DNA of 63,444 bases, counting the filler, from Chrysochromulina tobinii (taxonomy: Eukaryota), in assembly GCA_001275005.1 (NCBI GenBank). It is 8 parts of 8 records of this genome, joined end to end, with 100 filler letters (N's around TTAATTAATTAA, not from the genome) between each part and the next. Parts side by side here need not be neighbours in the genome. Positions count along the whole stretch, not along the records: positions 1 to 11,421 come from JWZX01000343.1; positions 11,522 to 19,961 come from JWZX01000346.1; positions 20,062 to 25,555 come from JWZX01000347.1; positions 25,656 to 38,398 come from JWZX01000348.1; positions 38,499 to 41,018 come from JWZX01000349.1; positions 41,119 to 54,795 come from JWZX01000350.1; positions 54,896 to 59,514 come from JWZX01000352.1; 1 more part is not named here. The stretch is one strand, 5' to 3'. Position 1 is the first letter of the stretch. Every line of letters starts with the position of its first letter. This document shows, in pieces, positions 1 through 58,372 of the stretch. A program made the translations under genes and the position numbers. The notes beneath the pieces are model-generated. The model saw nothing but the letters and a program-made list of their open reading frames with translations, had not been told where the DNA came from and made no database searches.

Positions 1-2119
1 CCCAAGGATGAATTCGAGGAGCAGACGCTCCTCGCCATGTGGACCGCCCGGCTCGACGTCGGCCGCATCAAGTGCACCGCGGCCGCCTTCTCGCCGAATG
101 CGGATCTCCTCGCCATCGGCAGCAACGACGGCGCAACGTCCATGTTCAATCCCAAGACCGGCCGCCTGGTGTCCAAGCTGGGGGTTGCGTACACCAAGGA
201 GACCGACCTGATGTCGATGCTCGCCGACAATGGCCGAGGCATCGTCATGGCGCTCAAGTTCAATCCCGCTCCGGGAGTGAAGCCCAGGCTGCGCGTCGCG
301 CTGTCCGACGGCAAGGTGGAGTGCTTCGATCCGATCACGGGCGCCTCGAGCGGCCTCAACGTCGTCGACGGCGGTCAGACACTCGCCCTCGACTACGCGA
401 CAGACGGCACTTGCTACGCGGCGGGCGGCGTCGACCCGACTACCCCCGGCGGCGGTGGGCCAGCGGTGCGCGTGTACGACGACAAGACGTCGAAGCTCAA
501 GATGACCTGCACCGGCGATGCGACCGTCCCTGGCCACTCCAATCGAATCTCGTGCATCCGCTTCCAGAACAGCTCCCAGCTCGCCACGGGCAGCATGGAC
601 GGTGCGGTCTGAGTGCGGTCTTAGTGCCTTCTGAGTGCGATCTGAGTGCGGTCTCCTGGGCTGATTGCGATCTGAGTGCGGTCTGAGAGCGGTCTGAGTG
701 CGATGGGATGGATTGCCAACCGCTCCCAGAACAGCTGAAAGCTCGCCAAAGGCAGCACGGGCGGTGCGGCCTGATTTGCGCTCATTGCGACCGGACGGCC
801 TCCCTAATTAGGAACTGTCAAGCTCTGGTCGGTCGGGTCCAAGGACCCCATTAAGACCTTACCGTCCGACCAGACAGCTTCGTCCATCGCCTTTGAAGTA
901 GTTGGCCCGTCGATCGACTTTGATGGCCATTACATGCTCGTCGGGAGTGCTCGCCCACATAAGAACTTGCTCCTGTACGGCATGAAGACGGACCAGAGCA
1001 TGTTCTGTTGATGACCCATGATTGCCTCCCTCATCAGGCCGAGACGGACCAGAGCATGTTCTGTTGATGACCCATGATTGCCTCCCTCATCAGGCCGAGA
1101 CGGACCAGAGCATGTTCTGTTGATGACCCATGATTGCTCCTGTACGGCATGAAGACCAACACACGCGGTTCTCGGAGATTGGGTAGAGTGCCTCTCTGAG
1201 TGCCTCTGATTGCCTCCCTCATCAGGTACGACATGAGGAACTACAAGCTGGTCTCGGAGATTGGGTGGCGCAAGCTCGCGCCCGCGAAGACGGCGGCGCA
1301 GCGCATGTGGAACCGTGCCAACCTCGCGAGCCTGCAGAAGAGTAACATCCTTGCGGCGTCATTCACAGATGGGGGCAAGATTGTCGCGGGAGGTGCGACG
1401 AGATGACCCCTCTCTGATGGACTCTCTGATTGCCTCTCTGATGGCCTCTCTGATTGCCTCTCTGATGGCCTCTCGGAGGGCCTCTCGGAGGGCCTCTCCG
1501 ATGGCCTCGAATGAGCACTGATGGCCTTTCTCATCGGCATGACTTGCCTAATTTGGGCGTGACTTGCCTCCGTGTCCAGGCGCGATGGGCGCCGGAGGTG
1601 TGGTCAAGATCTTCACACCCAACACGCCACCAAAGGATGCTCAGCCGGTGGGCGGTGATGCGGCCGGCGCTGAGCCCGACGCGATGAGGGAGTTGTTCTC
1701 GGCCGTTGCGAGCTTCTCCGTGCCAAGCGGCGTGATGGGCATCGACGTGTCTCGCAAAGCGATCATTCGAAAGGGGGAGAAGGTGCCTCTGAGTGCCTCT
1801 GAGGGCCACTGAGTGCCACTGAGTGCCACTGAGTGCCACTGATTGCAAAGCGATCATTCGAAAGGGGGAGAAGGTGCCACTGAGGGCCACTGATTGCCAC
1901 TGAGGGTCGCTGATTGACTTTGATTGCTTTTGATTGATATGGTTTGCTATTGATTGCTATTGATTGCCTCCCCGATGGCTCCTCAAACATTAGGTGGGCG
2001 AGGGCGAGAATGCCGTCGAAGCCGCCGAGGACATCAAGATGATGGCCGTCGCCGCAGCCAATGGCATCGTCTACGGCATCAAGCTCCCTAGGGATCTACC
2101 GCACCACGCCGAGCTCTGA
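1..2119 (+). CDS. WD40-repeat protein, 5'-truncated, 5 exons (1-601, 812-974, 1226-1392, 1580-1782, 1994-2119)
   Basis: Frame is open from base 1. Splicing GT-AG introns 602-811, 975-1225, 1393-1579 and 1783-1993 keeps the frame and rebuilds WD motifs (GHSNRISCIRF...LATGSMDG|TVKLWS; LLL|YDMRN). The exact 3' end is less certain. Confidence 0.85.
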
Positions 2120-2251
2120 GCTCGCCCATATTAGGAACGCCTCTCGCGATTGACGAGACCGGCGGCGGGGAGCTTGGCGGCGGCGTGACCCTCCGAGCTG
2201 CGCCCTTATCAGGCAAGCTGCACTCCTCGGAGCCGGCCATTGAGCATGCAA

Positions 2252-2430
2252 CCTTCTAGCATGCAACCCCTTGATATGGGCCCCCCATCATGCCACCTTC
2301 TAGCATGCAACCCCTTGATATGGGCCCCCCATCATGCCACCTTCTAGCATGCAACCCCTTGATATGGGCCCCCCAGAATGCCACCTTCTAGCATGCAACC
2401 CCTCGATATGCCCCCCCCAGCATGCCACCT
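2252..2430. repeat. Minisatellite, about 4 copies of a ~44-bp unit
   Basis: CCTTCTAGCATGCAACCCCTTGATATGGGCCCCCCATCATGCCA repeated head to tail. Confidence 0.9.
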
Positions 2431-3684
2431 TCGGAGCTCTGTGAGCATGCCGGAACCTCTCCACAGCACAGGAGCAAGTGAGGATGTTACAGAGGAGCAG
2501 ACAGTACACGCCTCTCGGCGTTCGTATGCGAACGGGCCTCGGGGATGCACCCGAGGGCTCACTGCTGCTGTGTGGCGACGCCGGTGCGCCCTATGGCGCG
2601 CTTCGTCGAGTGCGCGCCGTCGTGGCGCACTCGAGGGCTTCACTGCTGCTGTGGTCTGGCCTCTAGAGACTGTGTCTGACTGTGTGCCGTGCGTGGAGGC
2701 TGGAGCGCCACGCCAGCACCGGCCGAAACGCGCGGCAGAGTTTAGGCGAAGTTCTGCGGTTCTGCGCGCGGCGTCGCGGGGGTCCGTTGGTGCGTGAGTT
2801 TGGCGTGAGCCGGGCTTCCTTGTCGTCGGGGGCGTTGGCTGGACCGGTCCGCTGGTTTCAAGTCTCTAGTCTGTGCGAAGCGTGGCGTGTATGCGCGCTA
2901 ACTATAAACTAAGCGCAAGGACGAAGGACTGGGTAAAAACTAATCCTTCTAATGTCCGACACGCGGGGACTGTCGTGTGGAGACGTCACTGTGCGGTGGC
3001 GCGGGACCGCTGTCCAACTCCAAAGCCGTGGGAAAGCCGTGGAGGTAGGGGCGGTAGCCGCAAGACGAGCGGGGAGACCCACACAGTCGCATGTGACGCT
3101 GTGAATCTCTAATTATAAATTAAAGTTTAATTAAAGTTTGGGGGCGACTCGCTACGTTATCTTCTATAATCAAAGACGCCACCCTAAATGCGTATCTCTT
3201 TCGTCTTTGCGCGTGGCGGCACCGTCGGCACACCGCCATGCGGCGCTGCGTGCGCTGCCCCCCTGGCGCCACTGTCACTGCGTGCAGGCGCCATACCGCC
3301 AAACAAAAAGGCCCACGCGCCTCCCACACAGGAAACAGAAAAATGACAGGATCACGATCAGAAGCCAAAAAGAATAGCAACACTCACCCCTTCACATCAC
3401 TCACTCACTCACCCCTTCACATCACTCAATCAAATGCACACCATGATGCACACGTGCTACAATAATGTACCTAACCAAAAAGCGAGAGCACAGTCCAGAG
3501 AGTCGCAATCTAATCATACTACCAATGCATACTACGTAATATGCATCTTTGCCACTGGCGGAACCGTTCAGCGCGCCATAGCGCTGCTGCGCTGTCCCCT
3601 GGCGCCAGTCACTGCGCAGACGCCGCACCGCCAAAGGCCACGCGCCTCCCTTCTTGAGTGGCGGCCGGTTCGGCTCGAGCCGGA

Positions 3685-5784
3685 TCACAACATACCATAC
3701 CAGTCGTCGTCACTAGTCACGGTCACGGGGCCAACGATGGCGTTCTTCAAACTGTTGAAGCTGCTGTTCTTGGAGGAGCTGCTGTCGAATGTGCGCGGCG
3801 GCGACGACGGGCCGAGCAGCTCGTCGGGTGAAATGGCGTCACCGCGGCGTAGCAGGAAATGCGTCTCCATGACACCCTTGCCCTTGACTGCGATGGCGCC
3901 TCGCGGCTGCAGGTAGAAGGGTAGGGGGGGCGGCAGCAGCGCGCCGGACGCGGCGGCGGCGGCTGCCGCCGCCCTGTCGGCCGCCTTGTCGGCCACCTCG
4001 GCGGCCGCAAACGCGGCCGCGAACTTGTCCGAGACGTGTGTACGCCCCGGCAGCGAGTTGGACTCCATGCGCGCCGTCGTGTTGATCGTGTCGCCGAAGA
4101 TGGAGTAGTGCGGCAGCGTGCGCCCGACGACGCCACCGACAGCGGGCCCGCAGTGGAGGCCGACGCGGATGAGCATGTTGCCCGAGTTGGGTAGCTCGTG
4201 GCGCCCGGCGCACTCGACCATGTCGAGCGCGCAGCGCGCTATCTGCAGCGCCTGCGCGCACGGGTCGCGCTCGCCCGAGATGCCGGCCACGGCGACGAAG
4301 GCGTCGCCCACGGTCTCGAGTTTCGTCACGCCATGCCGCTGCGCGATCTCGTCAAAGTCCTTGAAGAGGTCGTTGAGCATGGCCATCGTCTCGTGCGGCG
4401 TGATGGTGCCGACGAGGTCCGTGAAGCGGACAATGTCGGTGAAGAGGAGTGTCACGTGCTCGAAGTGCTCCGCAACGTGCTCGTCGCCGGCGCGCAGCAT
4501 CGAGACGACGCGCCGCGGCAGCATCGAGTACAGGAGGCTGTCGTTCAGTTGCTGCTGCAGCGCGATGAAGACGATGAGCGCGGTGATGAGCGCCGCGATG
4601 ACGACGACGGCCGCAACGGCGCCGTTCTCAGGCACGGGAGTCAACGAGCCCGTGCGCGGCTCGATGGTGATCACCCAGGCGGACGAGTAGGCGCGCACAA
4701 CACTCGAAACGGCCCCGGCGTCGTACGCGCTCGTCGGCAGCGAACCGTCACTCGACGAGACGACGACCAAGGGGAGCGCGTCCATGCCGTCGGAGGTCTC
4801 GACGGAGCGCGCGATGGACCACTTGTACTCGGCGCCCAGATGCTCGATGCCGGCGAGCTCGAGCAACTGGCTCCACACGACGATGATGGTGAAGAAGCCC
4901 CAGAAGCGCCGCCCGTCGCCCGTCGCGTTGGTGTCGCAGAGGGACGCGCCCGTCGCGGCGCTCCGCACGACGTCGCAGCCCGTGACGGTCGTGAAGGGTC
5001 CCAGCGGCGAGCCGCCGCGCGGCCAGCGGTAGCCGAGCGACCACGGGTCCGCAGCGGCCGTCGTCGAAGCGAAGAGGGGGATGCGCGAGAGCAGGGCGCT
5101 CTGGCCGTACTTGCAGAAGGCGGTGCACTTCGTGAGGGGCGACAGGATCTTCTTGGGACCCTCGATATGAATCTTCCGGTCCGTCAGCGCGAGGACGACC
5201 GCCTGGCGCCGGTTGGCGATGACCGAGCTCGCATTGAACAAGTCGTGCCCGCCACCCACGTCTCCACCCACGGACCCGCCGCCCGACGACACGGGGGGGT
5301 AGATGGCCGCGACGCGGCCGTACGGCGCAAGCTGAACGTCGTTGATGGCTGGCGACGCCATGACGAGCGCCGGCGCCGCGCGCGTGAACCATCTCTGCAC
5401 GGCCTCGTGCGTCGGCGGTGGCCCCGACTCAACGAAGGTCGCCGCCGCGAGCGACGGGTTGAGCGCGCCGCGCAGAACCGCGCCGAAGGAAACCGCGACG
5501 GACGAGAGGAGCGTCTGCGCGCGCACCTGGCGCGCGATCGCCTCCGAGTTAGTGTACCTCATCATGACGCCGTGGCCCCCGCCGGCGAGCACAGCGAAGA
5601 CGACAGCGGCGAGGCCCAGAAAGCGGCACGGTGCCGCGCGCAACTCGCGCCAACCGCGCCACGCCGACACGCGTGCACAGCGCGGCGCGCGTGCAGCGCG
5701 CTTCGCCGCGCCGGCGGCGCGCGGTGCCGGCGCGAGCTTGCGTTTCATGACGTCGTCGTCGACGACGGACAGGACGTGCACCAT
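3685..5784 (-). CDS. Membrane class III nucleotide cyclase (guanylyl-cyclase-like) with an extracellular CHASE-like sensor region; intronless
   Basis: Two hydrophobic segments flank a region with CHASE-like motifs (QLAPYG, GHDLF, IEGP, FWGF). Cyclase motifs SMLPRRV, TLLFTDIVRFT, KLETVGDAF, IRVGLHCGP, FGDTINTTARMES. Start is 5784 or 5748. Confidence 0.88.
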   Translation of the reverse strand: MVHVLSVVDDDVMKRKLAPAPRAAGAAKRAARAPRCARVSAWRGWRELRAAPCRFLGLAAVVFAVLAGGGHGVMMRYTNSEAIARQVRAQTLLSSVAVSFGAVLRGALNPSLAAATFVESGPPPTHEAVQRWFTRAAPALVMASPAINDVQLAPYGRVAAIYPPVSSGGGSVGGDVGGGHDLFNASSVIANRRQAVVLALTDRKIHIEGPKKILSPLTKCTAFCKYGQSALLSRIPLFASTTAAADPWSLGYRWPRGGSPLGPFTTVTGCDVVRSAATGASLCDTNATGDGRRFWGFFTIIVVWSQLLELAGIEHLGAEYKWSIARSVETSDGMDALPLVVVSSSDGSLPTSAYDAGAVSSVVRAYSSAWVITIEPRTGSLTPVPENGAVAAVVVIAALITALIVFIALQQQLNDSLLYSMLPRRVVSMLRAGDEHVAEHFEHVTLLFTDIVRFTDLVGTITPHETMAMLNDLFKDFDEIAQRHGVTKLETVGDAFVAVAGISGERDPCAQALQIARCALDMVECAGRHELPNSGNMLIRVGLHCGPAVGGVVGRTLPHYSIFGDTINTTARMESNSLPGRTHVSDKFAAAFAAAEVADKAADRAAAAAAAASGALLPPPLPFYLQPRGAIAVKGKGVMETHFLLRRGDAISPDELLGPSSPPRTFDSSSSKNSSFNSLKNAIVGPVTVTSDDDWYGML

Positions 5785-6129
5785 ACATGGAATGTTTTCG
5801 CAGTGGTACGGGAAAACCGGGGCTTTTTTAGGGTTAAATTGCCGGCACCTTTTCGGGTCCGTCGATTCTCCATTAGTAGGAAAGTTTGCTTTTGGAGTCC
5901 GAACCATACCTGTACTCGCACGCACTCGAGGGTTTAGCGTACCTCCCCAAGCGATGAACGTGTACTACGGCGATCGTGTACATGTACTCGATGGGCGTTG
6001 TCGACCAAGTTGAGCCTTCTCTGGGTTTTCTTGTGAGAATGGTGTAGGATTCTGATTGGGGCGCTGACAATTCAGCGCTGTGGGGCGGGGGACTGAGGAT
6101 TCAGCCGGTAAAGTCGGGGTGTGTAGGAT

Positions 6130-6353
6130 TCAGCCGGTAAAGTCGGTGTGAGTGTAGGATTCAGCTGTTCACTCCCGTGTGTAGGATTCACCATCATCGG
6201 AAACGCGAATCCTACAATCCTTGGAGCCAGAGGACCACGCTCGCTCACCGAATGCTGACGTCGCCGGTCGTGGATGCCCGTGCCCGGAACCGTGAATCCT
6301 ACACACACCGGTGTGAACAGCTGATCCTACACACCGACTCGTTTACCGGCTGA
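6130..6353. repeat. Imperfect ~60-bp inverted repeat with ~100-bp spacer (foldback-like), built from GTGTAGGATTC subunits
   Basis: 6130-6191 is approximately the reverse complement of 6292-6353. Extra GTAGGATTC/GAATCCTAC copies occur at about 6042-6215. Confidence 0.7.
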
Positions 6354-6832
6354 GGATCATCAGACTTCAGAGTCAGTGCCGCCCCGCGCGCTACCCGCGC
6401 GCCGCGCCCGCACGGGCCGCGGCACCACGCGGGCGGGCGCTGAATCGTGAGCGGCCGCCCGCTATCCGTGAATCCTCCGGGCGCATTAACATATGAATAC
6501 CTCGCATAGATTGTCGACCTCCATCCTCCTCAACGACCGGACCCAACGTGCAGACCCAACGTGCAACCTACCGGAAATCAAACGAAACACATCGGAATGG
6601 CTTGGCACACGCGCGGCCAAGCCCCCCCCCCTCCACCGCACAGCTTCGATTCCTCACCCGCGCAGCGGAGCCTGGCCACGAAACACACACCGCAGTCTTC
6701 CTCTCTAAAAAGCCGCGCCACGCTCAGCGCCACACCACGTCAGGTAGTACGCGCCCCCACCACGATTTGCCGTACGCGCCGGCGTGTGGAACCAACATCT
6801 CCGAGATTGAATCTCCGGACCGTCGAGGGTGT

Positions 6833-7006
6833 CGTGAATGCACAACCATGCGACCCCCCCTCGGCGTACTGCTGTTCACACCCCGAGGCCGCTCGAGCCT
6901 GCTGTGAATGCACAGCACCATGCGCCCTCGTGAATGCACACCCATGCGCCCCCTCCCCTCGGCGTACTGCTGTTCACCCCCGAGGCCGCTCGAGCCCGCT
7001 GTGAAT
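6833..7006. repeat. Degenerate ~97-bp tandem duplication
   Basis: CCCCTCGGCGTACTGCTGTTCAC...CCCCGAGGCCGCTCGAGCC..GCTGTGAATG occurs twice. Confidence 0.75.
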
Positions 7007-7254
7007 GTGAACCGCGAGACAGAATCGGCGTGATCGGCGCGCCCCACTTGACGAAACACATGCGCACTCGCTGACACTCTGTACCATGCGCCACTCTGCC
7101 ACCGCTGTGGGCAACCAGTCACGTGTGCCTTGCCTAATTCGGCTTGCCAGTCGACTTGCCTAATCCGGCATGGTACTCGTCCTTTCACCGCCAAGGGTTT
7201 GGCGCGAGAGCTGGACTCGGACTCGGTCCATCCAGCCCACCTAGCCATCTTATC

Positions 7255-10200
7255 TTAGGCAGTGAAGTCCTCCTCCTCCGTCTTCGGCTTGCCCACCTCG
7301 GTCGAGACCATCTTCTCAAGCTTGCGCAGCTCGGGCTCGGGCAGGTCGGACTTATCGACGTACCTGTGGGAAAGGGAGGAGAGGGCGCCGTGGTGAGCAC
7401 TTGCATGCAGCCGTCGTGCTCGAGCGCGCCTCCGCCATCTCGAGCTTGGCGACGTACCGCTTGGCGACGTATCGCAATCAGAGTTCATCAGAGGTAATCC
7501 GATCGAATTGGGGTCGCAATCAATGCCGCGGCACGACGTACCGCTTGAGCGAGGCAATCAGAGGTCATCAGAGGCAATCAGAGGTCATCAGAGGCCATCA
7601 ATGCGGCGGCACGACGTACCGCTTGAGCGAGAGAGCGAGGAGCACATCTGCGAACTTGACGAGCCCTCCCGGTTTCTCGACCTTGAGCTTCTTCGCGATG
7701 GACCTGGCGCTGTTGGCGGCGTCGTCCTCGCCGAAGGTGCCGAGGGGCGGGGGCACCTTTGCAATGAGCTCCGGCAGCATGCTTTCAGGGAGCTTGTTGT
7801 TGGCCTCCGGATCGAGCTCAGCCCATGCTTCCATGAAACCGTCAATGTCGGAGGGCGAGACGAGGTCGGGGTTCTGTGAATGTGAACAACGACGGGTGGT
7901 GGGCATCAGTGGTCATCAAGGGCGATGGTCATCAAGGGTCATCAATGGTCATCAAGTGATCATCAGTGGTCATCAGTGGTCATCAGTGGTCATCAGAGGT
8001 CATCAGTGATCATTTTCGCACCTGCTCGGAGAGCGAGGTGAAGTTCTCGATCCATGGTCATCAGAGGTCATCAGTGGTCATCAGTGGTCATCAGTGGTCA
8101 TCAGTGGTCATCAGTGGTCATCAGAGGTCATCAGTGATCATTTTCGCACCTGCTCGGAGAGCGAGGTGAAGTTCTCGAGGATCACAGCGACCATCAGGTT
8201 GAGGAACACCAACGTGCCGAAGAGCTGGAAGGTGACGAAATACGGGATCGCGACCCATGAGCCGCAGTCGACGCCCTCGGTGCACAGGCCGGACTCTTCC
8301 TGCACGAGCGAATCTTGGAGCAGCAGCGTCCAGCCGTCGCCGGTCACCGACTGGAGCAGCAGCAGCATACCTGTGGGGAGAGGAGAGGGCGCCGTGGTGA
8401 GCACATGCATGCAGCCGTTGGTCACCGACTGGAGAAGCAGCAGCATACCGTTGCCCACGGTCTGGAAGTTGCCATCAGTTGCCATCAGTTGCCATCAGTT
8501 GCCATCAGTTTCCATCAGTTTCCATCAGTTTCCATCAGTTGCAATCAGTTGCAATCAGCAGCATACCGTTGCCCACGGTCTGGAAGTTGCCATCAGTTGC
8601 CATCAGTTGCCATCAGTTGCCATCAGTTGCAATCAGCAGCATACCGTTGCCCACGGTCTGGAAGTTGGCATGAGATTCGACGTTGTCCTGAAGGACCAAC
8701 GTCGCGAACAGGTGCATGCCGAGGACGGCATAGATGAACATGACGAGCGCGAGCAGCGAGCACACGTTGAACACGGGTGGGAGAGAGAGGATGATGGTCG
8801 TGACGAGGTCACGCAGCCCCTTGACGCCCTTGAGGATGCGCAGGATCCGCACGATCCGGAGCAGGCGGAGCACGCGGAGCAGGAATGGCGGCACCGGCAG
8901 GTAGGCCGTCAGGTCCGCCGCGAGGTCGTCGATGAGTGCGGTGCAGACGAGCACGAAGTCGAAACGGTTCCAGCCGACCGAGAAGTAGCCTGATGAGGGG
9001 GCGCAATCGGAGGTGCAATCAGTCGCAATCAGAGGTGCACTCAATCGCAATCAGAGGTGCCATCACTGATGAGGGGGCGCAATCGGAGGTGCTCAGTCGT
9101 GCTCAGTCGCAATCAGAGGTGCCATCAGTCGCAATCAGAGGTGTGCTCAGTTGCAATCACGTACCAATCGGGCCGAGCGAGAAGATCTTGAGTGCAAACT
9201 CGGTATAGTAGACGCTGATAAAGAAGCGCATCGCGTAGTTGTACGCATCGCCCTTGGTCATCTCGAAGCCGGAGATCGAGATGAACGCGTCGTCCTCAAA
9301 CTGGTACGATTTGCACGCCATCAGCAGCGTGTTCAGCAGGATGATCGTGATGATGAAGATGTCGAAGTTGACCGACATGACGAGCTTGAAGATGTACATG
9401 CGCATCGAGCCTTCGGGCGGCGGCACTCCCTTCATCGGCTTCGCGAGCACAGCTGTCTTGATCGTCTGGACCCATTGGAGCTGAGCGCCGGTCATGGTAG
9501 CCGAGCCCGCGCCCGTCTCGGCGGCGATCGAGTTGAACGTCTCGACGATCGCGCCGATGAAGAGGTTGAGCGCGATGAAGGCGCCGACGAACATCCACGA
9601 GATCGTGAAGAGTGCGGCGGGCGAGTAGTCGTTGCGCACGGGCGCCAGGCCGGGGCCCTTGGCGGCCATCGCCTGGAACATCTCCGTCTCCCAGAGATCG
9701 CCCGAGGTCTGTGTGGAGATCGTGAGGAGATCGTGAGGAGATTGTGGGGAGATCGTGGGGGGGATCGTGATGAGTCGTGAGGAGATCGTGAAGAGATCGT
9801 GAGGAGGGGGCGGCAAAACAAGGGCGCTCAAGGGCAAATCGATGGCAATCGAGGGCAATCAACCGGGAGAGCGTACCTGGAGGAAGAGCGCGAGCATCGC
9901 CGAGCCGAAGTTGTCGAAGGAGTTGCCTGGAGGGTTCTCCCACGTGTTGCCCGCCGTCACGCACTCCTCGACGGTGGCGATGGTCGGATCCTCCGTGCAC
10001 ATCGCGAAGGTGCCGGCGAACATCTGCATACCGAGGATGGGGCAAAGTCGGCAATCAAGGGCAATCAAGGGCGATCAAGGGCGATCAAGGGCATCAAGGG
10101 CAATCAAGGGCACTCAAGGGCAAAGTCGGCAATCAGAGAGGCCGTCAGAGGCCGTCAGAGGGCCATCAAGGGCAATCAAGGGAGATCGCACCTGCATGCC

Positions 10201-11391
10201 GAGGATGGCGAAGACCGCTTGGATGAAGAGGTAGACGGCAAGCACATTCATGACGGCCGGGATCGAGGCGATGAGGGTCGCGACGATCACTTTCATCGAC
10301 TCAATGCGACCGACGAGCCGCAGGGGGCGGAGTGCACGGAGCACGCGGAGGGACTTGAGGGGGGCGAGCGCCTCAATGTCGAGCACTTCCGCGGCGATGA
10401 CGGTGACGGAGACGAGGACGATGGCGAAGTCGAGTTGGTTCCAGCCGTTCTTGAGGTAGGCTCGCTCGGTGAAGAGGAAGCCATAGGCGATGATCTTGAG
10501 GAGCGCCTCGGTCACGAAGATGGCCTGATGAGGGGGGCAATCATGCGGCCCATCAGAGAGGCCATCAGAGCAGCCATCAGAGAGGCCATCAGAGAGGCCA
10601 TCAGAGAGGCCATCAGAGAGGCCATCCGAGAGGCCATCAGAGAGGTCATCAGAGAGGCCATCAGAGAGGCCATCAGAGAGGCCATCCGAGGCCATCTGAG
10701 AGGCCATCCGAGAGGCGATCAGAGATGTTCACAGCTCCAGCGGCACGCACCGTGAACACGTAGTTGGTGAGCGTCAGCTGGGCTTCGAGAGGCGATTCGG
10801 GGTCAAGGAGTGGCGAGTCGATGGCGAGCGAGACCGACGAGGCGATGATGATGAACAGGATGAACATCTCAAAGTTCGGGTGACGCACGAACCACTCGCA
10901 ACACCTGTGGAAGACATGGCGAGTGCGTCATCAGCGCGTCGTCAGCGCGTCATCAGCGCGTCATCAGCGCGTCATCAGCGCGTCATCAGCGCGTCGTCAG
11001 CGCGTCGTCAGCGCGTCGTCAGCGCGTCATCAGCTTACCTGCGAATGCCGTTGCGCGGGCCGAAGAGGCAGAGCGAGTGCTCCTGGGGCCATGGCAATCA
11101 ACGGCAATCAACGGCAATCAACGAACCACTCGCCTCACCTGCGAATGCCGTTGCGCGGGCCGAAGAGGCAGAGCGAGTGCTCCTGGGGCCAGGGCTTCTC
11201 GACGAGCAGGTCAGACTTGGGCGGCGGCTTGGGTGGCTCCTCCACGGGGATCGGCTCCTCGCCTGGGGGGAGGGGGGGGGAGCGCCGTGGTGAGCACTTG
11301 CATGCAGCCGATCGAGCCGGCTGTTCGACGGGGATCGGCTCCTCGCCTGGCTCGGGCTCCTCTTCCTCGCCGAATGCCGAGAGCACCATGC
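7255..11391 (-). CDS. Voltage-gated Ca2+/Na+ channel alpha-subunit (two channel domains, probably III and IV, plus C-terminus), 5'-truncated at contig end
   Basis: Exons 11347-11391, 11139-11262, 10751-10904, 10192-10524, 9877-10023, 9165-9708, 8645-8989, 8150-8370, 7620-7873, 7255-7363 splice in frame. Motifs: YLKNGWNQLD, S4 LRVLRALRPLRL, SFDNFGSAMLALF, LNLFIGAIVETFN, GWNRFD, S4 LRVLRLLRIVRILRIL, FLNLMVAVILENF, EF-like FMEAWAELDP. Confidence 0.92.
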
Positions 11392-11421
11392 CTGCACGCA
11401 GAAAGGGGGGGGGGGGGGGGG

Positions 11422-13340: not shown

Positions 13341-14698
13341 CTAGGCGGTGATGGCCTTCTGTTGCATTTCCGCGTCGGTGATCACAGGGAAATCAGCCGC
13401 CGTGATGGTCATCAGCTCGAAGTCCTGCACGTCGCCATTCGAGCCGGGCGACATCTTCTCGTTGAAGATGCGCACCGCAGATTTCATGCGCGCGAGGTCG
13501 ATGGCGTTGCGCACGGTGCGCGCGTTCGAGAAGAAGGGCATGCGCATCCGCCGGCTCATGTACTCGCGGAAGGCTTCGATCGCTGACGCATCCATCTCAT
13601 ACTCGAGATCGCGGCACATCACCTTGCCGATCTGAACGAGCTCATCGAGCTCATAGTTGGGGAACTCGATGTGGTTGCCGATGCGCGAGTTCATACCCGG
13701 GATGAACGAGTAGAACTTGTCCATGCGGTCCTTGTAGCCCGCGAGCACCACGATGATGTCCTCCTTGTTGTTCTCCATCACGTTGAGCAGGATCTCAATC
13801 GACTCCTGGCCGTAGTCGCGGTCGTTGGCCGCATTGTACAGGTAGTAGGCCTCATCGACCAGCAGGATGCCGCCCATCGCCTTCTTGACCATCTCCTTGG
13901 TCTTCGGCGCAGTGTGGCCGACGTACTGGCCCACGAGGTCGTCGCGCGTCGCCACGACGACGTGGCCCGTGCGGCAGTAGCCCATCCGCTGCAAGATCTG
14001 ACCCATGCGCAGCGCCACCGTCGTCTTGCCGGTGCCGGGCGCGCCCGTGAAGCCCATGTGCAGCGACGGCACGCTCGTCTCGAGGCCGAGCTTCAGGCGC
14101 ATCTTGTCGACGACCAGAAGCGAGGCGATCTCGCGCACGCGCTGCTTGACCGGCAGCAGTCCGATCAGGTCGTAGTCGAGCTTCTGAAGGATGTCCTTGA
14201 CGCCCTCCTTGTACATGAAGTCATCGACAGTGCCCGCTTGCATACTATCGGGGATCTTTTGCAGCAGCATGATCTTGCGCTCGCGCGCCTCCTTTTTCCT
14301 CCTGAGCGCATCTTCGCGCATGGCGATCGCATCCTCCTCCAGCCGGCGCTCGAGATCAGACGTTTTGAGCGCATCGGAGAGGCGGCGATAGTTGCCCTTT
14401 GCTGGGTCGAGCGACGCTTTACTGTCAGCGGAAACGCCCTCCGTGATGCCCGAACCAGGCCCGCGCCCATCAATTGGGGCCTTCATGCGCAGAGCGGACA
14501 TGCGCTGCATGCCCTGCAGGTTCAGTGCAGCGGGCGCATGCAGGGAAAGTGCACCTCCCACGATCAACGACGAGAAAGCCACCTGCGAGCAGGGCAAGCA
14601 TGAGGTCAGGCACCATCGTCCACAAGCATCGTACAGGCACTGGCACAGTGGTCTTGCGCCGGTGGCTGAGTGTCTCGGCGTATGAAGGAGCTTACCAT
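13341..14698 (-). CDS. cbbX: CbbX, AAA+ activase of red-type (form ID) Rubisco; nuclear-encoded with bipartite plastid-targeting presequence
   Basis: LIGLLPVKQRVREIA, HMGFTGAPGTGKTT (Walker A), DLVGQYVGHTAPKT, LLVDEAYYL (Walker B), FSNARTVRN. Intron 14583-14695 (ATG|GTAAGC...CGCAG) gives MVAFSSLIVGGALSL...ALRM. Confidence 0.95.
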
Positions 14699-15945: not shown

Positions 15946-17906
15946 ATGTCGGCGCATCCGGCGGACTTGTTCGTCGTCAATCTGTCGTCACTCGGTGCGG
16001 TGCGCGGCGCAAGAGTCGACGAGGTCGTGCGCTTCTTGGCCATCCCGTATGCCAAGCACGAGCGATTCTGCGCTCCACAGGCGCCGGATCCCTGGGGCGA
16101 GGCTGCACGGGACAATCCTCTCGTGTTGCCGTGTTGCCCGCAGCCCCCGAGCACTCTCTCGCATCCGTTGCGCACGTTTGCAGGCCATCGTCTCGAGCCC
16201 TCGGAGGCTGAGTGTCTTGTACTCAATGTGTTCACTCCACATAGTGCGCTGGCCGACGAGGACGGCCCGCTCAGGCCCGTCATCTTCTACATTCACGGTG
16301 GCTCTGGCAAGTTTGGCAGCTGCCACATGGTCGACAATGCCTCCGGTCAGGCGCTCGCAGCGCAGCACGGCGTAGTGCACGTCGCCGCCAACTATCGGCT
16401 CGGGGCGCTCGGCTGGCTGGCGCACGAGGCGCTTCTCGACGAGGACGCGCATGCTGGCGGCATGGGTTGTGGCAATTTCGGGCTACTCGATCTGGTTTTT
16501 GCGCTGGAGTGGGTGCGGCAGCATGTGCGCGCCTTTGGTGGCGACCCGCAGAATGTCACCATATGGGGTACCTCGACGGGCTCGCAGCTCGTGTGCACGC
16601 TCCTCACGTGCCCGCTCGCGCGCGGTCTCTTCTCCAAGGCGGTGATGCAATCGTGCGCCGACCTTGCCAACGTGCGCGAGCTGCGCCGGCGGCACGACGT
16701 GTGGCTCGGCAAGACTGCGTGTGAGTGGGGCGCCATGCTCGCTGCGCACCTCGGCTGCGCGAGCGCCTCGCCGCGCGAGGAGCTCGCTAAGCTCCGCGCT
16801 CTGCCTGTCGAGGCGTTCATCGATGCGTCGAATGATCTCGAGTCGACAGATTGCTACGAGCCTGCCGTACACCGGCTGCGACAGCATGGCGCCGACGGAG
16901 AAGATGAGGGCAGCGGTGGCGGCGAGGACATGGCATGGGTCCGTGGTGGCACGGGTGGTGACGCGGCCAGTGCCAGTGCGGGGAAAAGACCCCGTACCGG
17001 TAATGCCGGTAATGCCGGTAGTGCCGGTAGGGCCAGCGAGTCGCTCAGCATCTCGCCGAAGCCGCTTCCATCAGCGCAGGCGCTCGCGATGGGCAGAGCT
17101 CTCGAGACCGTACCGGTCATGCTCGGGCTGACCTCGGCCGATGGGCTGGGTAAGGTCGAGCTCGAGTGGACGATGTTCGAGGAGGTGCACTCCCTCGAGG
17201 AGTACTCGTCCCTTCTGGGCGCCCATTTCGGTGCCGACCGCCGAGAGGCCGCGCTCGCCGTTTTTGGGGCGCGCACGCCCGAAGAGGTGGCGTCGCCGCT
17301 TGAGAACTGATGTCCACTTGATTGCCGCTGATTGTCTTGAACTGACGGCCACTTGATTGCCGCTGATGGCCAGTGATTGTGACCGGTAGACCCTTCACTC
17401 GGCATCAGGTCGAGTCGCAGCTCGGTGCCATCGCTGAAGGTCTGTGGTACTCAGCTGCGACTCGCCTCTCCGCAGACCTGCTCGTGAGTCACCGCACGCC
17501 CGCTTGGCTGTACCGGGTCTCCGCGCGAGGCTTCACGCAGCATGGGCATGACGTGCCGCTTTGGAACGGCACGCCGCGCTGGCATGATGCTGCCGCCCCG
17601 AGGGGTGTTCGCGCCTCGGATAAGGTGGCGACCGCTGAGCCGTCCGCCGAGCCGGGGGCGAGGACAGTGGGCGGGGAAGTGGGGAGCGCCGCAATGGGCT
17701 TCCTATGCAACTTTGCGCGCACGGGTGATCCCAACGGGCCGGGCTTGCCCACCTGGACACCACACACGCACGGTGCTGAGCAGTACATGGAGCTTGGGCC
17801 GCAGCTGGGCATGGGCACTCCCTCCGAGCCACAGCTCAGCTTGGAGCGGGCACGCTTTGCTCTACTCTCGGAGTACCTTCTGCGCGAGCGAGGTGAGGCG
17901 GCGTGA
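15946..17906 (+). CDS. Type-B carboxylesterase (alpha/beta hydrolase), 2 exons, intron 17287-17408
   Basis: FLAIPYA, ECLVLNVF, YIHGG, NYRLGALGWL, GNFGLLD, FGGDPQNVTIWGTSTG (GxSxG nucleophile), HGHDV, NFARTGDPN. Confidence 0.9.
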
Positions 17907-46390: not shown

Positions 46391-47727
46391 ATGCTGGCCC
46401 GGACGCGGCTCCCCAGGGTCGCTCGCGAGGTTGGTTCAGCCACGCGCATCACGCTCGGGCCGTCCTCGCTGCGCTCTTCCGACGTGCTCGCCGTGCAGGC
46501 TGAGCTCGCGCGGGCCGAGCGCGGCACCGTGAACACTGGAGTGTTGCACGCCGGCCGCAGCTCGGGCAGCAACGTGCGCGATTTGGCGCAGGCGACCGCG
46601 GTGGAGCGCGCCAAGCACTTTCAGATCGTGGCCAACCTGATGCGTACGCTCGGCCTCTCCAAACTGCCCACCATCGCCGTTCTCGACGGCCAAGCAACCG
46701 GCATCGCGCTGGGTATCGGTGCGCACGCATCGGCATGCGTGGTCACGGAGCGCACGCGGCTGTCTCTGCCGGGCCCAGCGTTCGGCTTCGTGCCCGAGTC
46801 CTTCGCGAGCTACCAGCTCGCGCGGCTCCCCGGCGGGCTCGGCGCGTACCTGTCGCTCACAGGCGCATCGCTCTCGGGGCCCGAGCTCGTCGAGCTCGGC
46901 CTCGCCACCCATGCGACCGAATCGCAGGCGGTGCATCGCATCGAGGCAGAGGTGCGCGGCCCGACCGCCCGATGCGCTCCCGCTCGCTCCATTGGATCCC
47001 TCGCGTGATTGAGTGCCTGCGTGCCTGCTCGCAACCCATCTGAGCCTCCCTCTTGTTTGGCCCTCGTCCTCGGGTGCAGCTCTCTCATCAGCGCGTCCGT
47101 CAGCTCGGCCGCTCCCTACGCAACGTCGAAGTCGCGATCATCGAACCACGCCGTCAGCCATACACGGAGCACCATGCCCTCCACTACGCGGCGCCGATCG
47201 CCGAATGCTTCGGCGACGCTCCGGACATAGCCACGATCCTAACGCGACTCGAGGCCGGACAGACGGAGTGGCATCGGCAGGCGGAGCAGGTGATGAGGGC
47301 TGCCTCGCCCCTTGCCCTCACTCTGACCCTCGAGGGGCTCCTGGCCGCCGGACGCGCCGAGTGCTGGACGCACGCCTTGTCCTTGGAGGCCCAGATCTGC
47401 GCCGCCGCCGCCGCCGCGCCCGACTGCGCGCACGGAGCACGACGCCTCGAGGCCGCTAAGCGCGAAGCCCTCGCAGAGGCTGCGCGCCTCGAGCGCCACG
47501 CCGCCGCCGACCCCGACGAGCACGGCGACGAGGAGGACTCTTCCGACGACTCCTCCTCCGACTCCTCCCCCGACGAGGGCTCGTCCTCCTCGGACACGTC
47601 ATCCGACGACGAGAGCGTTGCGGCGGGCGCGCCAAAGCCGCCGCCGCCCCTCCGCTGGGAGCACAGCAGTCTCGCGGACGTCAGCGCGGAGCTCGTGCGT
47701 GGGTACCTGGTGGGCTTCAAATCTTGA
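46391..47727 (+). CDS. 3-hydroxyisobutyryl-CoA hydrolase-like (crotonase fold; possibly mitoribosomal mS47-like), intron 46952-47079
   Basis: PTIAVLDG..TGIALG, VVTERT, LGAYLSLTG, LGLATH, IAECFG, ASPLAL, RWEH. Confidence 0.75.
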
Positions 47728-49249: not shown

Positions 49250-51200
49250 ATGGAAAGAATGCTCGAGAGCTCGCCGTACCTTGACGTGCAGGCTAAAATC
49301 AACGAGTCCGTCAACCGCCAGCTGCAGAACCTTGTCAAAAACGTGCACGCGCACTTTGCCCAAGACGTTGTTCCGCCCAGCGCAGCGGCGTCGGGGGAGC
49401 GACTGGCGGGGATGGTGCGTGTCCGAGGGGGCGGCTGCGCCGCAAGCAAGCCTCACGCGCAAGCCGAGCCAATCATTCAGGACCTGGACGGCCCTCCGAG
49501 ATCACCATCTCTCGCTGTGGAGCAAGGCGCTGAGGCAACACCCGAAGACGCGAAGGTCGTCGAGCCAGTGCCCGAGACGACCGACAACAGCGCACCTACG
49601 GAAGGTGTGGAGCCGGCGGCCGGAGAGGCGACGGAGGCAGAGACGGCGACGGAGGCCACGAGGGCAGAGCCGCCGCCGGCAGAGGCGTCGGCCGAGACGA
49701 GGAACCCGATCTTCGAGATCGGCAGCTCCTGGATCGACGCGATCGTGCAGGCCTTCACGCCGCGAGGAACGTCCGTGCCCAATACGGCGCCCACTTCGAT
49801 TGAACTCGCCCCCCTCTGGACCACAGAAGACTTGAAAGAAGTCTCGACACGTTTGGCGGATCAGCTTCTCATCAACACCGAGAACCAGGTCCAGATCGAG
49901 GAGATCTTCAACCATCTTCAGCAGACGAAAGATGGCATCCTGACAATGGAAGAGTTTGGCCCAAGGACGCCGAGAGAGGTGAGCCTTCGAGACGGCAGCG
50001 GCTCGCTGCCATTTTGGGCGCCGCCGCTCGCCGCCCACCACACCTCGCCCGCCGCTCGCGGCCCGGTCCAGCCGCCGCCCAGCTCGCCCCAGCTCGCTTG
50101 CGCGCTGCCTCGGGCGCTGCCTCGGCATCTGACAAAGCCCCTCTGAGTTTTGCATGGTGCGCCGCAGGCGTCGCGTGACAGCCTTTGGGACAAGCTGCGC
50201 GTGGAGCTGGACGAGAACCAGGACGGCAAGATCTCACTTAAGGAGTTCGTCACCGGCTTCAAGAAATTCGTCCTCAAACAAGCCCTCAAGCAAGTTCCCC
50301 TCCCCACCTCGGTCCCATCGGACCACTCGCACGAGATGACCTTGCTGAACGAGGCGATGAACCGATCGCTCAAGAAAATGGTTGCGGATGTCGCGCAACA
50401 GGTTGGTATGAAGTGTGACACGCCACCACCAGCGCCACCACCAGCGCCACCACCAGCGCCACCACCAGCGCCACCACCAGATGCGCTGCGCCAAGCCAAG
50501 GATAGCTTCCAACAGGAACGTACGGGAGGGGTGCTGGAGTGGCTGCTGGCTAAACTTCGATCAATGATGTTCCGAGCGACGCCAGCACCGATCAATGACG
50601 CACCGAGCGACGCCAGCGACACCCCTATTGCCAGCATTGAACCCGCCTTTCCCGTGATGCCATCTGGCGGCGGCGGCGGCAGTGGCGGCGACGGCGGCGG
50701 CGGTGGCGGCGGCGGCAGCGAGGGCTATGGCGGTCACGCGCAAGGCGGTGGCGGCGAGGGCTTGTGGGCAGTTGTCTTTCCCCTGTCGAAGAGTGGGCGT
50801 GAAGTGTTCATGGCGACGAGACCAGATGGTCAATACATGACGTTCGGTGGAACACCGGGATCTGGGGAGACGCCTCCAGAAACTGCCTCCCGTGAGTTCC
50901 GCGACAAAGGGGGCGTTGTTCCGGGTGGTGTCCTGGATCTCACCGGCTGGACGGAAAGAATGGTCAAGGATCAGTACGGGTCGACGGCCTACTTCATCGG
51001 GCGAGCCCCGAATCGCACCACCTGGAAGTATAATCAGAATAATTCCAAGGAGACCACCGGAGGGGTGTGGCTGACACTCGATGATTTGATTGCTGCCAAC
51101 GCTGAAGGACGGCTGAGGGACGGCAAGCACGTGTTGAACATTGCCAAGCAGGTCATGCCGACGCCGCAGTACCAGCAGCAGCAGCAGCGGCATCCGCAGT

Positions 51201-51886: not shown

Positions 51887-51959
<73 letters not shown>

Positions 51960-54897: not shown

Positions 54898-57800
54898 AGT
54901 TGCGAGACTACCTCGACCAGCGGCGTCTCGGCTATCGGCGCCAAGGTGGACGTCGATGGCGCGTGCTGGGAGCATTCGCATCCCCTCGCCCTCAACGTGT
55001 ACGAGATGAACGAATGGGCCGTCGATCACCCGGGCAACGCCCAGTATGCGCCTGATGAGCGATGATTGCCTCCTCCCTAATTACCTTGATGAACGAGTGG
55101 GCCGTCGATCACCCGGGCAACGCCCAGTATGCGCCGAGCGCCCACCGCAACAAGGCCTTCGCGCTGGCCTCTGATGAGCGATGATTGCCACCTCCCTAAT
55201 TACCTTGATGACCGCCGAGGCTTGAGTGGCCTCTGATGAGCGATGATTGCCTCCTCCCTACTTAGGTATGCACCGAGCGCCAACCCCATCAAAGCCTTCG
55301 CCCTCGCGGGTGGCACGACCCTCCTCTGGCCCGCCAGCCATCCGATGAACCGTTTCGAAGGGCAGGCGAATAACTTTCCCATCCTCGGTCAGCTTTGATG
55401 CTCTAATTGCCTTTTGATGGCCTCTGATGGCCTCTGATGATCTCCCTAATCAGGTATGCTCGGATACGATTGGGTCTCTATTCGCCTCTGATTGCCGCTG
55501 ATGGCCTCTGATGGCCTTTGATGATCTCCCTCATCAGGTAAGCTCGGAGCCTCGGTGGACTTCACCAGCTTACCAACGAGCGTGCAGAACGCTGACGTGG
55601 CGGCACGGTTCGACGCGCTCGCGATGGGCGCCGCAACCGAGGCATGCGGCTCTCCGGGGGAGGTGGCCAATGAACCAACCGAGGGTCACCACTTCCACAT
55701 TGACGGCAACGGCGCGATCGATGACACGTCGCGATTCACTTATTGGACGCTGGGCAAGTACGATGGCGATATGGAGGTTATCCACGCGCACCTGGCGCAG
55801 CATGCGCCCGATCAGCTTCGTCAGCGCGCAGCGCATGCCCTCATCCAAATCTTTGTGATCTCGTGGGAAGGTGACTTGATGACCTCTGAGACACTTCGCA
55901 CGATTGCCTCCGCAGTGTTCGCACTCATCCGGACCGTCTCGTGCTCTCTTGATTACCTCTGATTGCCTCTAATTGCCTCTCATTGCCTCTAATCGCCTCT
56001 GATTGCCTCTAATTGCCTATGATTACCTCTGATTGCCTCCAATCGACTCTCATTGCCTCACTCATTCGGATCATCTCGTGCTCTCGCACGAAGGCCTCTC
56101 CATCAACTGGAACTCGGAAAACTTCCTCGCCTACCACGACATCCTTGTGCGCCATGCGTTCGGCTCAATGCGCGAGATCTTGAGCGAGATCTCGTACAGC
56201 GGTATGATGGCGCGCTACCTCACGTATCAGGACTCGGGGTCGCGCGCTGCCTCGGGCACCTCACCCGACGAGAACTACGCACGGGAGCTCATGCAACTCT
56301 TCTCGGTCGGTCTCATCGAGCTGGGCGAGGACGGCTCGAAGCAGCTCGACGCGCACGGCAACCCCATTGAAACCTACTCGACGGAGAACATCCAAGAGTT
56401 TGCGCGCTGCTGGACAGGCTTTAGCTTGCAGTCGATGCGCGTCAATATCCAAAACGAGGGCCACGCATACGGCAACCGGATCGACCCGATGCGCATCACT
56501 GGCAACGGCGCCGATACGAAGCGCGACCTCTTTCCTAAAATGGACCTGCATCGCGGCCACATCGGCGACGGCCTCCCGCTGTGCGCCGACCTGCCGCCGC
56601 GCCACTTTCTATCGGCAGGCGCGCGCTACACGTACCTCGGGCGTACGGCGAGCGCCAAGCATCAGCCCGAGGCCATTCATGCGACGACCAAGTCGCGCAT
56701 CAATGCGCTCGGCGCCAGCTGGACGGACCAAGTGCCGCGGCTCGCCCCCCGTCCGAACACGTCGAGCCTCTATTCACACCTCTGCGGTCGAGGCGGTGGC
56801 GGCGGCGGAGGTGTGAACAGAGGCAGCTGTCGCTTCCGGAGCGAGGTCCGCCTCAACGTGACACTGCCTTGCGACGGCAAGGAGTGTCTCGTCGACACGG
56901 TGACCGTCGTCGACATGCACGACAACAGCACCGGGGAGACAGTCTACTATGAGTACGTGCGCCCACCGTGCGTGGAGCTCACCTTTTTCCACGGGGCGCT
57001 CGTCATGTCGCAGGTGAGTTGCCCTTGATGACCACCGAGTGCACTTGACGACCCGTGATGAGCCTTGATGATGACCCTTGATTTTCATGGGGCGCTCGTC
57101 GTGTCGCAGGCGAATACCCTCAAGATGTGCGCCGACTTGGGCACTGAGGTGGCGTCCGCCGCATGCTGCCAGCCAGGCGCCCACTTGATCAACACCATGG
57201 CCATCACCGAGTGCGCCTACGTTAACGAGGCGATGAAGTACGACACCGCCGTCGCTCGCTGCGCGGCGCGCATCGACGGGTACACCCAGGTGGCTATGAC
57301 CTCTGATGACCTCTGATGACCTCTGATGACATCTGACGACCTCTGATGACCTCTGATGACCTCTGATGTCGCATGGACGGTTACATCCATATCTGCTCCA
57401 ATTTCTACAACGAATGGCCACGAATGGCCACTAATTGCCACCAATTCCACTAATTGCCACCAATTCCCACTGATTGCCAGGTCTGCTCCAACTTCTACCG
57501 CGCGCCCGGCTGCTTTGCTTATGGCCCCGCGGGCGATCACGGCATGTCATACGAGCGTGCGTGGACGCGGTACAATGCGAGCTCGACCCGGTGCACGATG
57601 CAAGTGCAGGTCTTTGCCAACGACGGCACCGTGACGCTCGTCCACCCCGACAGCCAGGACCCCTCTCTCACCAGAGACAGCGGCAACGTCTTCCGCGTGC
57701 GCTGGGCCGAGGGCCGTTATCCCGCGGGACGCAACTGCACCGTCTCTCCCATCGACGGCGCACCGACCGGGTGCACCACGTTCGACAATGGCGTCTCGTG

Positions 57801-58372
57801 TGTATGCAACGTGGCCATCGACACGCTCGCCGTCTATAATGACGTGGCCGATCTCCCACCGACCTCGCTGCTCGAGCGCACCCTCACCATCGGAGCCCCC
57901 GCCCCGGAGGCGTTTGGACAGGGCGCCTATGTCAGGTGCATGAGCGCCGCGTGCACCGCGGCCGTCTCGTCGTCGGCCTCGTCCGCGGGCTCGTCAGGTT
58001 CGTCAGGTTCGTCAGCGGACGCTCGCCTCGTCGCCGTGTACACGCACGCTTCCTCGGCGGGCGCTCTCGACCAGCGCTCCATCTTCGCCATCCTGCGCAA
58101 CGGGACGCGCCTCACCTACCTCGCAAACAAAGTGTCGACGGTTCGTGTCGGGAGGCCGATGAACGCCTGCATGCTGATTGCCTCCCTCATTGCATGCTGA
58201 TGGCCTCCCTCATCAGGTTCGTGTCGGGAGGCCGATGAACGCCGAGACCGGAGCCGGTGGCGGCTACTCGTTCCGCAACCCGCCCAAGTTCCACTCATTT
58301 CTCCGTCCGTCGATCCGAGACGCGGCGTACGAAACGGAGGCGCTGCTTGAGCACCTCTTCTACCACAAGAAC
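54898..58372 (+). CDS. Algal DUF1800-like large protein, partial; introns 55044-55265, 55388-55537, 55871-56093, 57014-57109, 57290-57480, 58141-58216
   Basis: DQLRQRAAHALIQIFVIS, YHDILVRHAFG, PDENYARELMQLFSVGL, IQEFARCWTG, FRNPPKF, YETEALLEHLFYHKN. All introns splice in frame. Confidence 0.85.

What the first reader, a model, noticed from the sequence alone, without database searches (positions are those of the whole stretch)
602..58216. Candidate intron-generating system: introns built from an exon duplication plus a repeat insert
Seen: about 20 introns in 4 unrelated genes on 3 contigs (WD40, channel, esterase, DUF1800-like) share one style, and most carry a copy of the adjacent exon. The intron start copies the start of the next exon at 975-1225, 1393-1579, 7364-7619, 8371-8644, 10905-11138, 11263-11346, 17287-17408, 55044-55265, 55388-55537 and 58141-58216. 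The intron end copies the end of the previous exon at 10024-10191, 55871-56093 and 57014-57109. The duplicated segment (7 to ~40 nt, perfect to decayed) supplies one splice site and the insert supplies the other, so splicing restores the original coding sequence. Known: Introner elements of Micromonas and Aureococcus are DNA transposons with TIRs and short fixed-length TSDs. These introns have no TIRs and long variable duplications. Inference: intron gain by staggered-break repair or target-primed iterative synthesis; the range of decay suggests a range of ages.
Basis: partly seen in the sequence, partly recalled or inferred. Interest (0 to 1): 0.88.

Follow-up and report, generated by a model that had tools for sequence, protein, structure and literature searches.

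The report
Half-introns that copy themselves into exons
In a freshwater alga many introns consist of a 10-50 base copy of the adjacent exon plus a piece shared with other introns, often the one next door, which likely means that DNA repair copies intron ends into genes and so makes new introns without a transposon.

Summary
Observation confirmed and extended. The window belongs to the Chrysochromulina tobinii/parva group. Removing 20 introns restores one reading frame in each of four genes. RNA contigs join one junction and stop at seven more. Eleven of 20 introns carry an exon copy anchored at a splice site, far above chance. In 0.7 Mb of related contigs, 91 of 116 acceptors carrying the window's 24-nt core have such a copy, 10-50 nt long. 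One intron is present in one allele and absent in another at 98% identity; four are absent in a paralogue. New here: inserts resemble neighbouring introns (nearest relative on the same contig 28 of 153 times, 2.5 expected), one carries its donor's exon remnant, and 5' and 3' types are halves of one ~75-nt progenitor. No terminal repeats; a published survey lists zero Introner families for C. tobinii. Best reading, inferred: microhomology-guided template switching in DNA repair, filtered by selection for spliceability. RNA-templated or HUH-transposase copying remain open.

The parts
602..811 (+). WD40 intron; internal decayed copy of upstream exon end (donor-straddling duplication)
   Evidence: RNA piece ends at 600
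975..1225 (+). WD40 intron; start copies next exon (12 of 14), inner ~42-nt decayed copy, B-type acceptor end
1393..1579 (+). WD40 repeat-style intron; exon copy not significant
   Evidence: p=0.08
1783..1993 (+). WD40 intron; perfect 29-nt inner copy of upstream exon end (donor-straddling)
   Evidence: RNA piece begins at 1992
7364..7619 (-). Channel intron with A core at 7385-7408; start copies next exon 8 of 8; spliced
   Evidence: (joint of 256 nt)
7874..8149 (-). Channel intron; perfect 29-nt inner copy of upstream exon end (donor-straddling)
   Evidence: RNA piece ends at 7873
8371..8644 (-). Channel intron with A core at 8389-8412; 28-nt copy of next exon before the core, two later donor-straddling duplications; likely donor of the 7364 insert
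8990..9164 (-). Channel repeat-style intron, B-type end; no exon copy
   Evidence: RNA piece ends at 9164
9709..9876 (-). Channel repeat-style intron; no exon copy
   Evidence: RNA piece ends at 9708
10024..10191 (-). Channel C-type intron; end copies previous exon 16 of 17
   Evidence: RNA piece ends at 10192
10525..10750 (-). Channel repeat-style intron, B-type end; no anchored copy
   Evidence: RNA piece ends at 10523
10905..11138 (-). Channel intron; start copies next exon 16 of 18, inner 57-nt copy of upstream exon
11263..11346 (-). Minimal A-type intron (84 nt, GC donor): 28-nt copy of next exon (25 match) + core at 11282-11305 + pyrimidine tract and AG
17287..17408 (+). Esterase intron; decayed start copy 11 of 14
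   Evidence: p=0.003
55044..55265 (+). DUF1800 intron; start copy 8 of 9, inner copy of 39 nt upstream exon + 42 nt next exon
55388..55537 (+). DUF1800 intron; marginal start copy, duplicated B-type acceptor
   Evidence: p=0.045
55871..56093 (+). DUF1800 C-type intron; decayed end copy 12 of 16
   Evidence: p=0.005
57014..57109 (+). Minimal C-type intron (96 nt): donor-bearing insert + 28-nt copy of previous exon end (25 match)
57290..57480 (+). DUF1800 intron; inner decayed copy of the exon-exon junction
58141..58216 (+). Minimal B-type intron (76 nt): perfect 27-nt copy of next exon + acceptor-bearing insert

Best explanation
These spliced introns join a 10-50 nt copy of the adjacent exon to part of another intron, and they likely arise when DNA synthesis at a break or stalled fork leaves the exon, copies an intron end by microhomology and re-primes a little upstream. 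Shown: the duplication-plus-insert anatomy, one shared family of inserts, gain/absence between alleles and paralogues, excess similarity to neighbouring introns, microhomology at the exit in single cases. Inferred: template switching on DNA as the chemistry; return at (A)G|GT, so that the first exon copy gives the donor (A, B types) or the second copy gives the acceptor (C type); selection keeps only sense-oriented products of at least ~64 nt that splice cleanly; each product is a new donor, so the family spreads without a transposase, mostly over 0.1-3.5 kb and sometimes far. The same process at existing junctions lengthens introns and stacks units.
For: Anatomy: 91 of 116 A-core acceptors have an anchored copy, 83 of 91 starting GT/GC, 27 of 91 perfect; 41 of 115 B acceptors against 9 of 128 control acceptors; 46 of 133 repeat-bearing donors have a downstream copy of the exon end. 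Gain: 81-nt intron in L093 (33-nt perfect copy + insert) absent from the open frame of allele L014, 98% identical; four introns of L034 absent in paralogue L071. Local donors: the 53 nt of the L093 insert occur elsewhere only in the next intron of the same gene, ~480 nt away; rare core variants shared in 39 of 96 same-contig pairs against 15+-4%, 0 of 2000 permutations; nearest relative on the same contig 28.2 of 153 against 2.5. Direction: the L054 intron at 12.5 kb carries 7 nt of the duplicated exon of the intron 2.5 kb upstream in the previous gene, with 5 nt microhomology. A polymorphic insert in L041 switches to the upstream intron's start through 9 nt of identity. Either end can be the precise one and insert starts vary (57 different first hexamers in 79). 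No TIRs or terminal direct repeats (0 of 79). Length 64-102 nt in 124 of 131.
Against: 14 of the 25 closest insert pairs lie on different contigs, and L006 holds a copy two changes from the L093 donor; a ~55-nt progenitor 5' part recurs in 12 loci. So distant copying is common, and with about 1% of a genome seen an exact distant donor is not excluded. Microhomology at the return junction is not above background (1-5 nt against mean 2.3). Inverted words are rare even inside introns (10 of 1078), whereas end-joining fillers often come in both orientations (recalled). Neighbour similarity could partly be gene conversion (L034/L071 share a converted tract). The L093/L014 pair has no outgroup: exact loss between the direct repeats is possible. 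No enzyme was identified.
Confidence: 0.55

Rival explanations
1. RNA-templated insertion: a host reverse transcriptase primes at a nick on nearby pre-mRNA, copies 45-60 nt of an intron end, and the second nick 10-50 nt away makes the duplication.
For: Same geometry; strict sense orientation (279 same-strand against 1 opposite pairs under 1 kb; 10 of 1078 inverted words); local bias plus distant jumps; A inserts are 5'-truncated to varying extents.
Against: C types are truncated at the 3' end instead; no poly(A) tail; one donor lies in the previous gene (gene borders read by eye, one case); no Rfam match in the window or three loci; no insert seen that skips a donor intron (not searched systematically).
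Confidence: 0.2
2. Non-autonomous copy-paste element moved by an HUH transposase, like Replitron-N1 of Chlamydomonas, with local hopping.
For: PMC10288648 section 9: insertion after RG, variable duplications, fuzzy end from the parent copy; C types follow AG, have variable duplications and parent remnants; that paper found one Replitron protein locus in C. tobinii; dispersed near-identical progenitor.
Against: No terminal direct repeats (0 of 79); no stable hairpin in three window inserts (z +0.7 to +1.4); precise end is the acceptor in A/B and the donor in C, with many different ends; no long element shares the core in 0.7 Mb (longest shared flank 62 nt).
Confidence: 0.15
3. Old introns with a conserved branch-point motif, reworked by duplications across splice sites and by gene conversion; no gain.
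For: 15 of 46 donor cases are straddling duplications, some polymorphic; conversion tract in L034/L071; the core may include the branch point (inference).
Against: Cannot give an intron whose first base starts the copy of the next exon; empty sites exist in an allele and a paralogue; homologous frames run through all six DUF1800 and nine channel positions (DNA or RNA origin of those proteins unknown).
Confidence: 0.07
4. Assembly artefact.
For: Short-read assemblies of repeat-rich DNA; unit number differs between assemblies.
Against: Independent DNA contigs and alleles carry the same structures, copies are diverged, RNA skips them.
Confidence: 0.01

Closest known systems
Daphnia pulex neointrons from staggered double-strand-break repair (PMC4202315; passages read)
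   Same: New introns of ~78 nt; a direct repeat of the adjacent exon at the opposite intron end; later internal duplications lengthen young introns; polymorphic in populations.
   Different: Repeats 4-12 bp there, 10-50 nt here; there most inserts had no identified source, here they belong to one family and trace to other introns.
Introners of marine Chrysochromulina MAGs, e.g. TARA_PON_109_MAG_00232 family 5 (10.1101/2022.06.06.494994 passages; PMC9860276 supplement rows)
   Same: Same genus name, ~70 nt, no TIRs, carries the 5' splice site and takes the 3' site from the duplication (like C type here).
   Different: Fixed 4-bp duplication and end-to-end similarity there; here long variable duplications, half-inserts, either end precise. 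Their sequences were not seen (figure and consensus files not held), so kinship is untested.
Replitron-1/N1 insertions of Chlamydomonas reinhardtii (PMC10288648 section 9 part 1)
   Same: Orientation-specific, after RG, variable duplication, fuzzy end from the parent copy.
   Different: Those are 0.9-3.6 kb elements with terminal direct repeats and a transposase; not described as introns.
Tandem genomic duplication model of intron gain, and local intron copying in Oikopleura (both recalled, from no call)
   Same: Splice sites drawn from a duplicated exon segment; related introns within one gene.
   Different: The first needs no insert; the second copies whole introns without a duplication.

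Membership tests
Introner (DNA-transposon type) | Terminal inverted repeats | tested here: not met
   0 of 79 insert ends and 2 of 125 whole introns reach 6 nt; mean equals shuffles
Introner (DNA-transposon type) | Short fixed-length target duplication | tested here: not met
   10-50 nt, continuous
Introner (broad sense) | Family similarity reaching both intron ends | tested here: not met
   One end is a locus-specific exon copy; the survey method required similarity near both ends
Introner (broad sense) | Many related introns at unrelated sites, with presence/absence | tested here: met
Introner (broad sense) | One splice site taken from the duplication, message unchanged | tested here: met
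Introner (broad sense) | Autonomous partner element | not testable with these tools
   No genome held; none seen in 0.7 Mb
Replitron-N1-like | Short terminal direct repeats | tested here: not met
   0 of 79 A-type inserts; C-type inserts not tested
Replitron-N1-like | Variable duplication and parent-derived fuzzy end | tested here: met
Replitron-N1-like | One fixed left end after RG | tested here: inconclusive
   C types were selected for AG; several different 5' ends by eye
Replitron-N1-like | Cognate Rep transposase | not testable with these tools
   No genome; one locus reported for C. tobinii
SINE / non-LTR insertion | Fixed 3' end with poly(A) or simple-repeat tail, truncation at the 5' end only | tested here: not met
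   A types end in a variable pyrimidine tract and AG; C types are 3'-truncated
SINE / non-LTR insertion | Parent small RNA | tested here: inconclusive
   No Rfam match at gathering scores in window, L011, L057, L070
Daphnia-type break-repair neointron | Direct repeat of adjacent exon at the opposite end | tested here: met
   lengths exceed the 4-12 bp reported
Daphnia-type break-repair neointron | Origin at a staggered break | not testable with these tools
   Inferred from the scar only

The most novel reading that the evidence does not exclude
A transposase-free, self-propagating class of introns: host repair copies half of a neighbouring intron into an exon, the accompanying duplication supplies the missing splice site, and every product seeds the next, giving gene-local intron pedigrees and thousands of gains that Introner screens cannot see.
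Probability: 0.5. Interest if true: 0.9.

Novelty: new variant of a known kind. Interest (0 to 1): 0.82.

Why it matters
Where new introns come from is a long-open question, and recent surveys attribute mass gain to transposons. Here a large, still polymorphic family shows donor, recipient and junction in the same gene, in a cultured alga with public genomes, so the mechanism can be tested directly. Because one end of each intron is locus-specific and the inside is repeat-rich, standard Introner searches would be expected to miss it (zero families listed for C. tobinii), so such gain may be undercounted elsewhere.

Tried and rejected
No whole genome held; metagenome contigs could not be extended. 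Motif scans: viral contigs gave 1 and 0 stretches, prokaryote genomes 0. Hairpin in the insert: none beyond shuffles. Rfam: 0 matches in 89 kb. Length modulo 3: no bias, 49/45/37, p=0.43. Return-junction microhomology: not above background. Duplication and insert length are anticorrelated (rho -0.69, n=79), but misplacing the border produces this too, so it is weak. The B-type null is inflated by repeats and some of the 41 passes are tandem repeats of a whole unit. Of 31 script-called C types about 7 look false by eye (low-complexity coding repeats, or straddles with a changed donor). L029/L058, L025/L063 and most L009/L041 indels are unit expansions, not new introns. Dropped rows: 45 of 161 motif sites without acceptor or enough flank; 16 redundant or second-allele loci. 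A tRNA- or SRP-derived origin of the core was considered from recall and found no support. Earlier scan findings: none. Literature: 10 searches found no description of this family; the library lacks most subscription papers; the E. huxleyi genome paper was not held, so its 10-11 bp intronic repeats are recalled only. Supplement 1 of PMC9860276 is cut, files 13-14 of PMC12130899 were not searched, and the authors' consensus files were not seen.
Full report
Setting. The window is eight contigs joined by spacers. The 90% clusters of two of four window proteins found in the collection include Chrysochromulina tobinii entries, one also C. parva, so this is a haptophyte of that group. No whole genome was held.

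Observation. I defined 20 repeat-style introns. Removing them gives a single frame in each of four genes, whose exons match WD40, ion transport, carboxylesterase and DUF1800 families. Eleven of 20 have an exon copy anchored at a splice site at p<=0.005; the summed score is 166.5 against 50+-3.4. Four more hold an inner copy; five show none clearly. RNA contigs of two runs join across 7364-7619 and end at a boundary of seven more of the 13 introns in 1-11400, while DNA contigs of two runs run through (contigs only, tables cut). The ten channel exons tile two 69%-identical proteins with offsets of at most three residues, and homologous DUF1800 frames, one on a 62.8-kb contig, cross all six intron positions without insertion; whether those proteins come from intronless DNA or from transcripts is not shown.

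A family. Three channel introns share a 24-nt core (window 7385-7408, minus strand). An exact scan of 4 of 64 parts of the metagenome collection gave 143 stretches, about 2200 estimated in all (not a genome count), 138 loci and 0.7 Mb held. Of 161 distinct sites, 116 have a pyrimidine tract, AG and enough flank; 91 of these have an upstream copy that starts at the first base of the next exon (null 99th percentile 9, observed mean 18.9), 10-50 nt long, 83 starting GT or GC, 27 perfect. These A-type introns are 64-102 nt in 124 of 131 cases. B-type acceptors show the same in 41 of 115, control acceptors in 9 of 128. The mirror C type (insert gives the donor, copy of the previous exon's end gives the AG) appears among 46 of 133 repeat-bearing donors, 31 called C type (about 24 by eye) and 15 straddling. 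Several C inserts run from a GT through the 10-nt repeat words into the A core; this ~55-nt 5' part was hit 21 times in 12 loci. A, B and C are thus best read as 3' or 5' parts of related ~75-nt introns.

Gain. L093 has an 81-nt intron (33-nt perfect copy plus insert) where allele L014, 98% identical, has an open frame; there is no outgroup, and exact loss between the repeats is possible. Paralogue L071 lacks four introns of L034 and shares two stacks inside a near-identical tract. The other indels in the seven allele pairs are expansions of units or duplications across existing donors.

Source of the insert. The 53 nt around the L093 insert occur, among the loci held, only in the next intron of the same gene, though L006 has a copy with two changes. 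Rare core variants are shared by 39 of 96 same-contig pairs against 15+-4% (0 of 2000 permutations). The nearest relative is on the same contig 28.2 times of 153, against 2.5 expected; 11 of the 25 closest pairs are on one contig against 259 of 21096 overall, and 14 are not. In L054 an intron carries 7 nt that belong to the duplicated exon of an intron 2.5 kb upstream in the previous gene, after 5 nt of microhomology. In L041 a polymorphic insert switches from one donor site to the upstream intron's start through 9 identical nt. In the window the 7364 insert starts with 8 nt found in the exon beside 8371 (read by eye). Return-junction microhomology is not above background.

Mechanism. Two switches are needed: out of the exon into an intron, and back 10-50 nt upstream. 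Microhomology, donors on either side, either end precise, varied insert starts, no terminal repeats and no hairpin point to host DNA synthesis that changes template, not to a transposase reading fixed ends. Selection would then keep sense-oriented products long enough to splice. This is inference (0.55). Strict strand fidelity even inside introns (10 of 1078 words inverted) and common distant relatives keep an RNA-templated route (0.2) and an HUH copy-paste route (0.15) open.

Known systems. Daphnia neointrons carry 4-12 bp repeats and mostly untraced inserts (PMC4202315, passages). Marine Chrysochromulina Introners have 4-bp duplications, no TIRs, ~70 nt (10.1101/2022.06.06.494994, passages; PMC9860276, supplement rows); that survey lists C. 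tobinii and C. parva among genomes screened, and the terms found them in no table of hits (file cut). The 2025 survey gives C. tobinii zero families (PMC12130899, passages and supplement row). Replitron-1 shows variable duplications and parent-derived ends but has terminal direct repeats (PMC10288648, passages and section 9 part 1). The C. tobin genome paper mentions introns once, with no such description (PMC4580454, passages). Ten searches found no description; the library is incomplete.

Verdict. Real, spliced where tested, widespread in the genome, still polymorphic, and not an Introner by the defining tests. It works like Daphnia-type break-repair gain joined to intron copying. New variant of a known kind, interest 0.82; if transposase-free self-propagation holds (0.5), 0.9.

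Noticed in passing
window 41119-41205: A (CCCTAA)n telomere-type run at a contig start runs straight into coding-like sequence; chromosome end or healed break.
   Followed up: no
window 38526-41015: 830-aa open frame without Pfam match; by eye it resembles a retroelement gag region.
   Followed up: partly
window ~14583-14695, ~19552-19611, ~46954-47080, ~49977-50167: Ordinary-looking introns without the repeat words or exon copies (by eye); the new style clusters in a few genes while others have none.
   Followed up: no
window ~6040-6480: Imperfect inverted repeats with short tandem units between two genes (by eye), possibly a MITE-like element.
   Followed up: no
window 3685-5907: Intronless guanylate/adenylate cyclase gene; laid contigs show a ~96% identical, deeper copy, so a paralogue family.
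   Followed up: no
window 10504-11150: A joint skipping 645 nt appears in one contig of each DNA and RNA run; unexplained, perhaps a paralogue.
   Followed up: no
L001 1730-2060: A viral-collection contig with a phage-like primase gene ends in Chrysochromulina-style intron sequence; probably a chimeric assembly.
   Followed up: partly
L034 7560-9000 and L071 1-1400: Paralogues at ~80% share a central near-identical tract with two intron stacks: gene conversion may carry introns between paralogues.
   Followed up: partly
L008, L014, L015, L029, L034, L059, L070: Whole units (exon copy + insert) repeated two to four times, leaving several AG|GT sites inside one intron; candidates for recursive splicing or alternative acceptors.
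   Followed up: no
L009/L041 and L014/L047: In-frame tandem duplications of 33, 39 and 42 nt without insert differ between alleles, showing a high background rate of short duplications.
   Followed up: partly
window 7385-7408: The core holds a GC-type donor-like word and a branch-point-like word within 12 nt; its genome-wide conservation may reflect a splicing role (inference).
   Followed up: no
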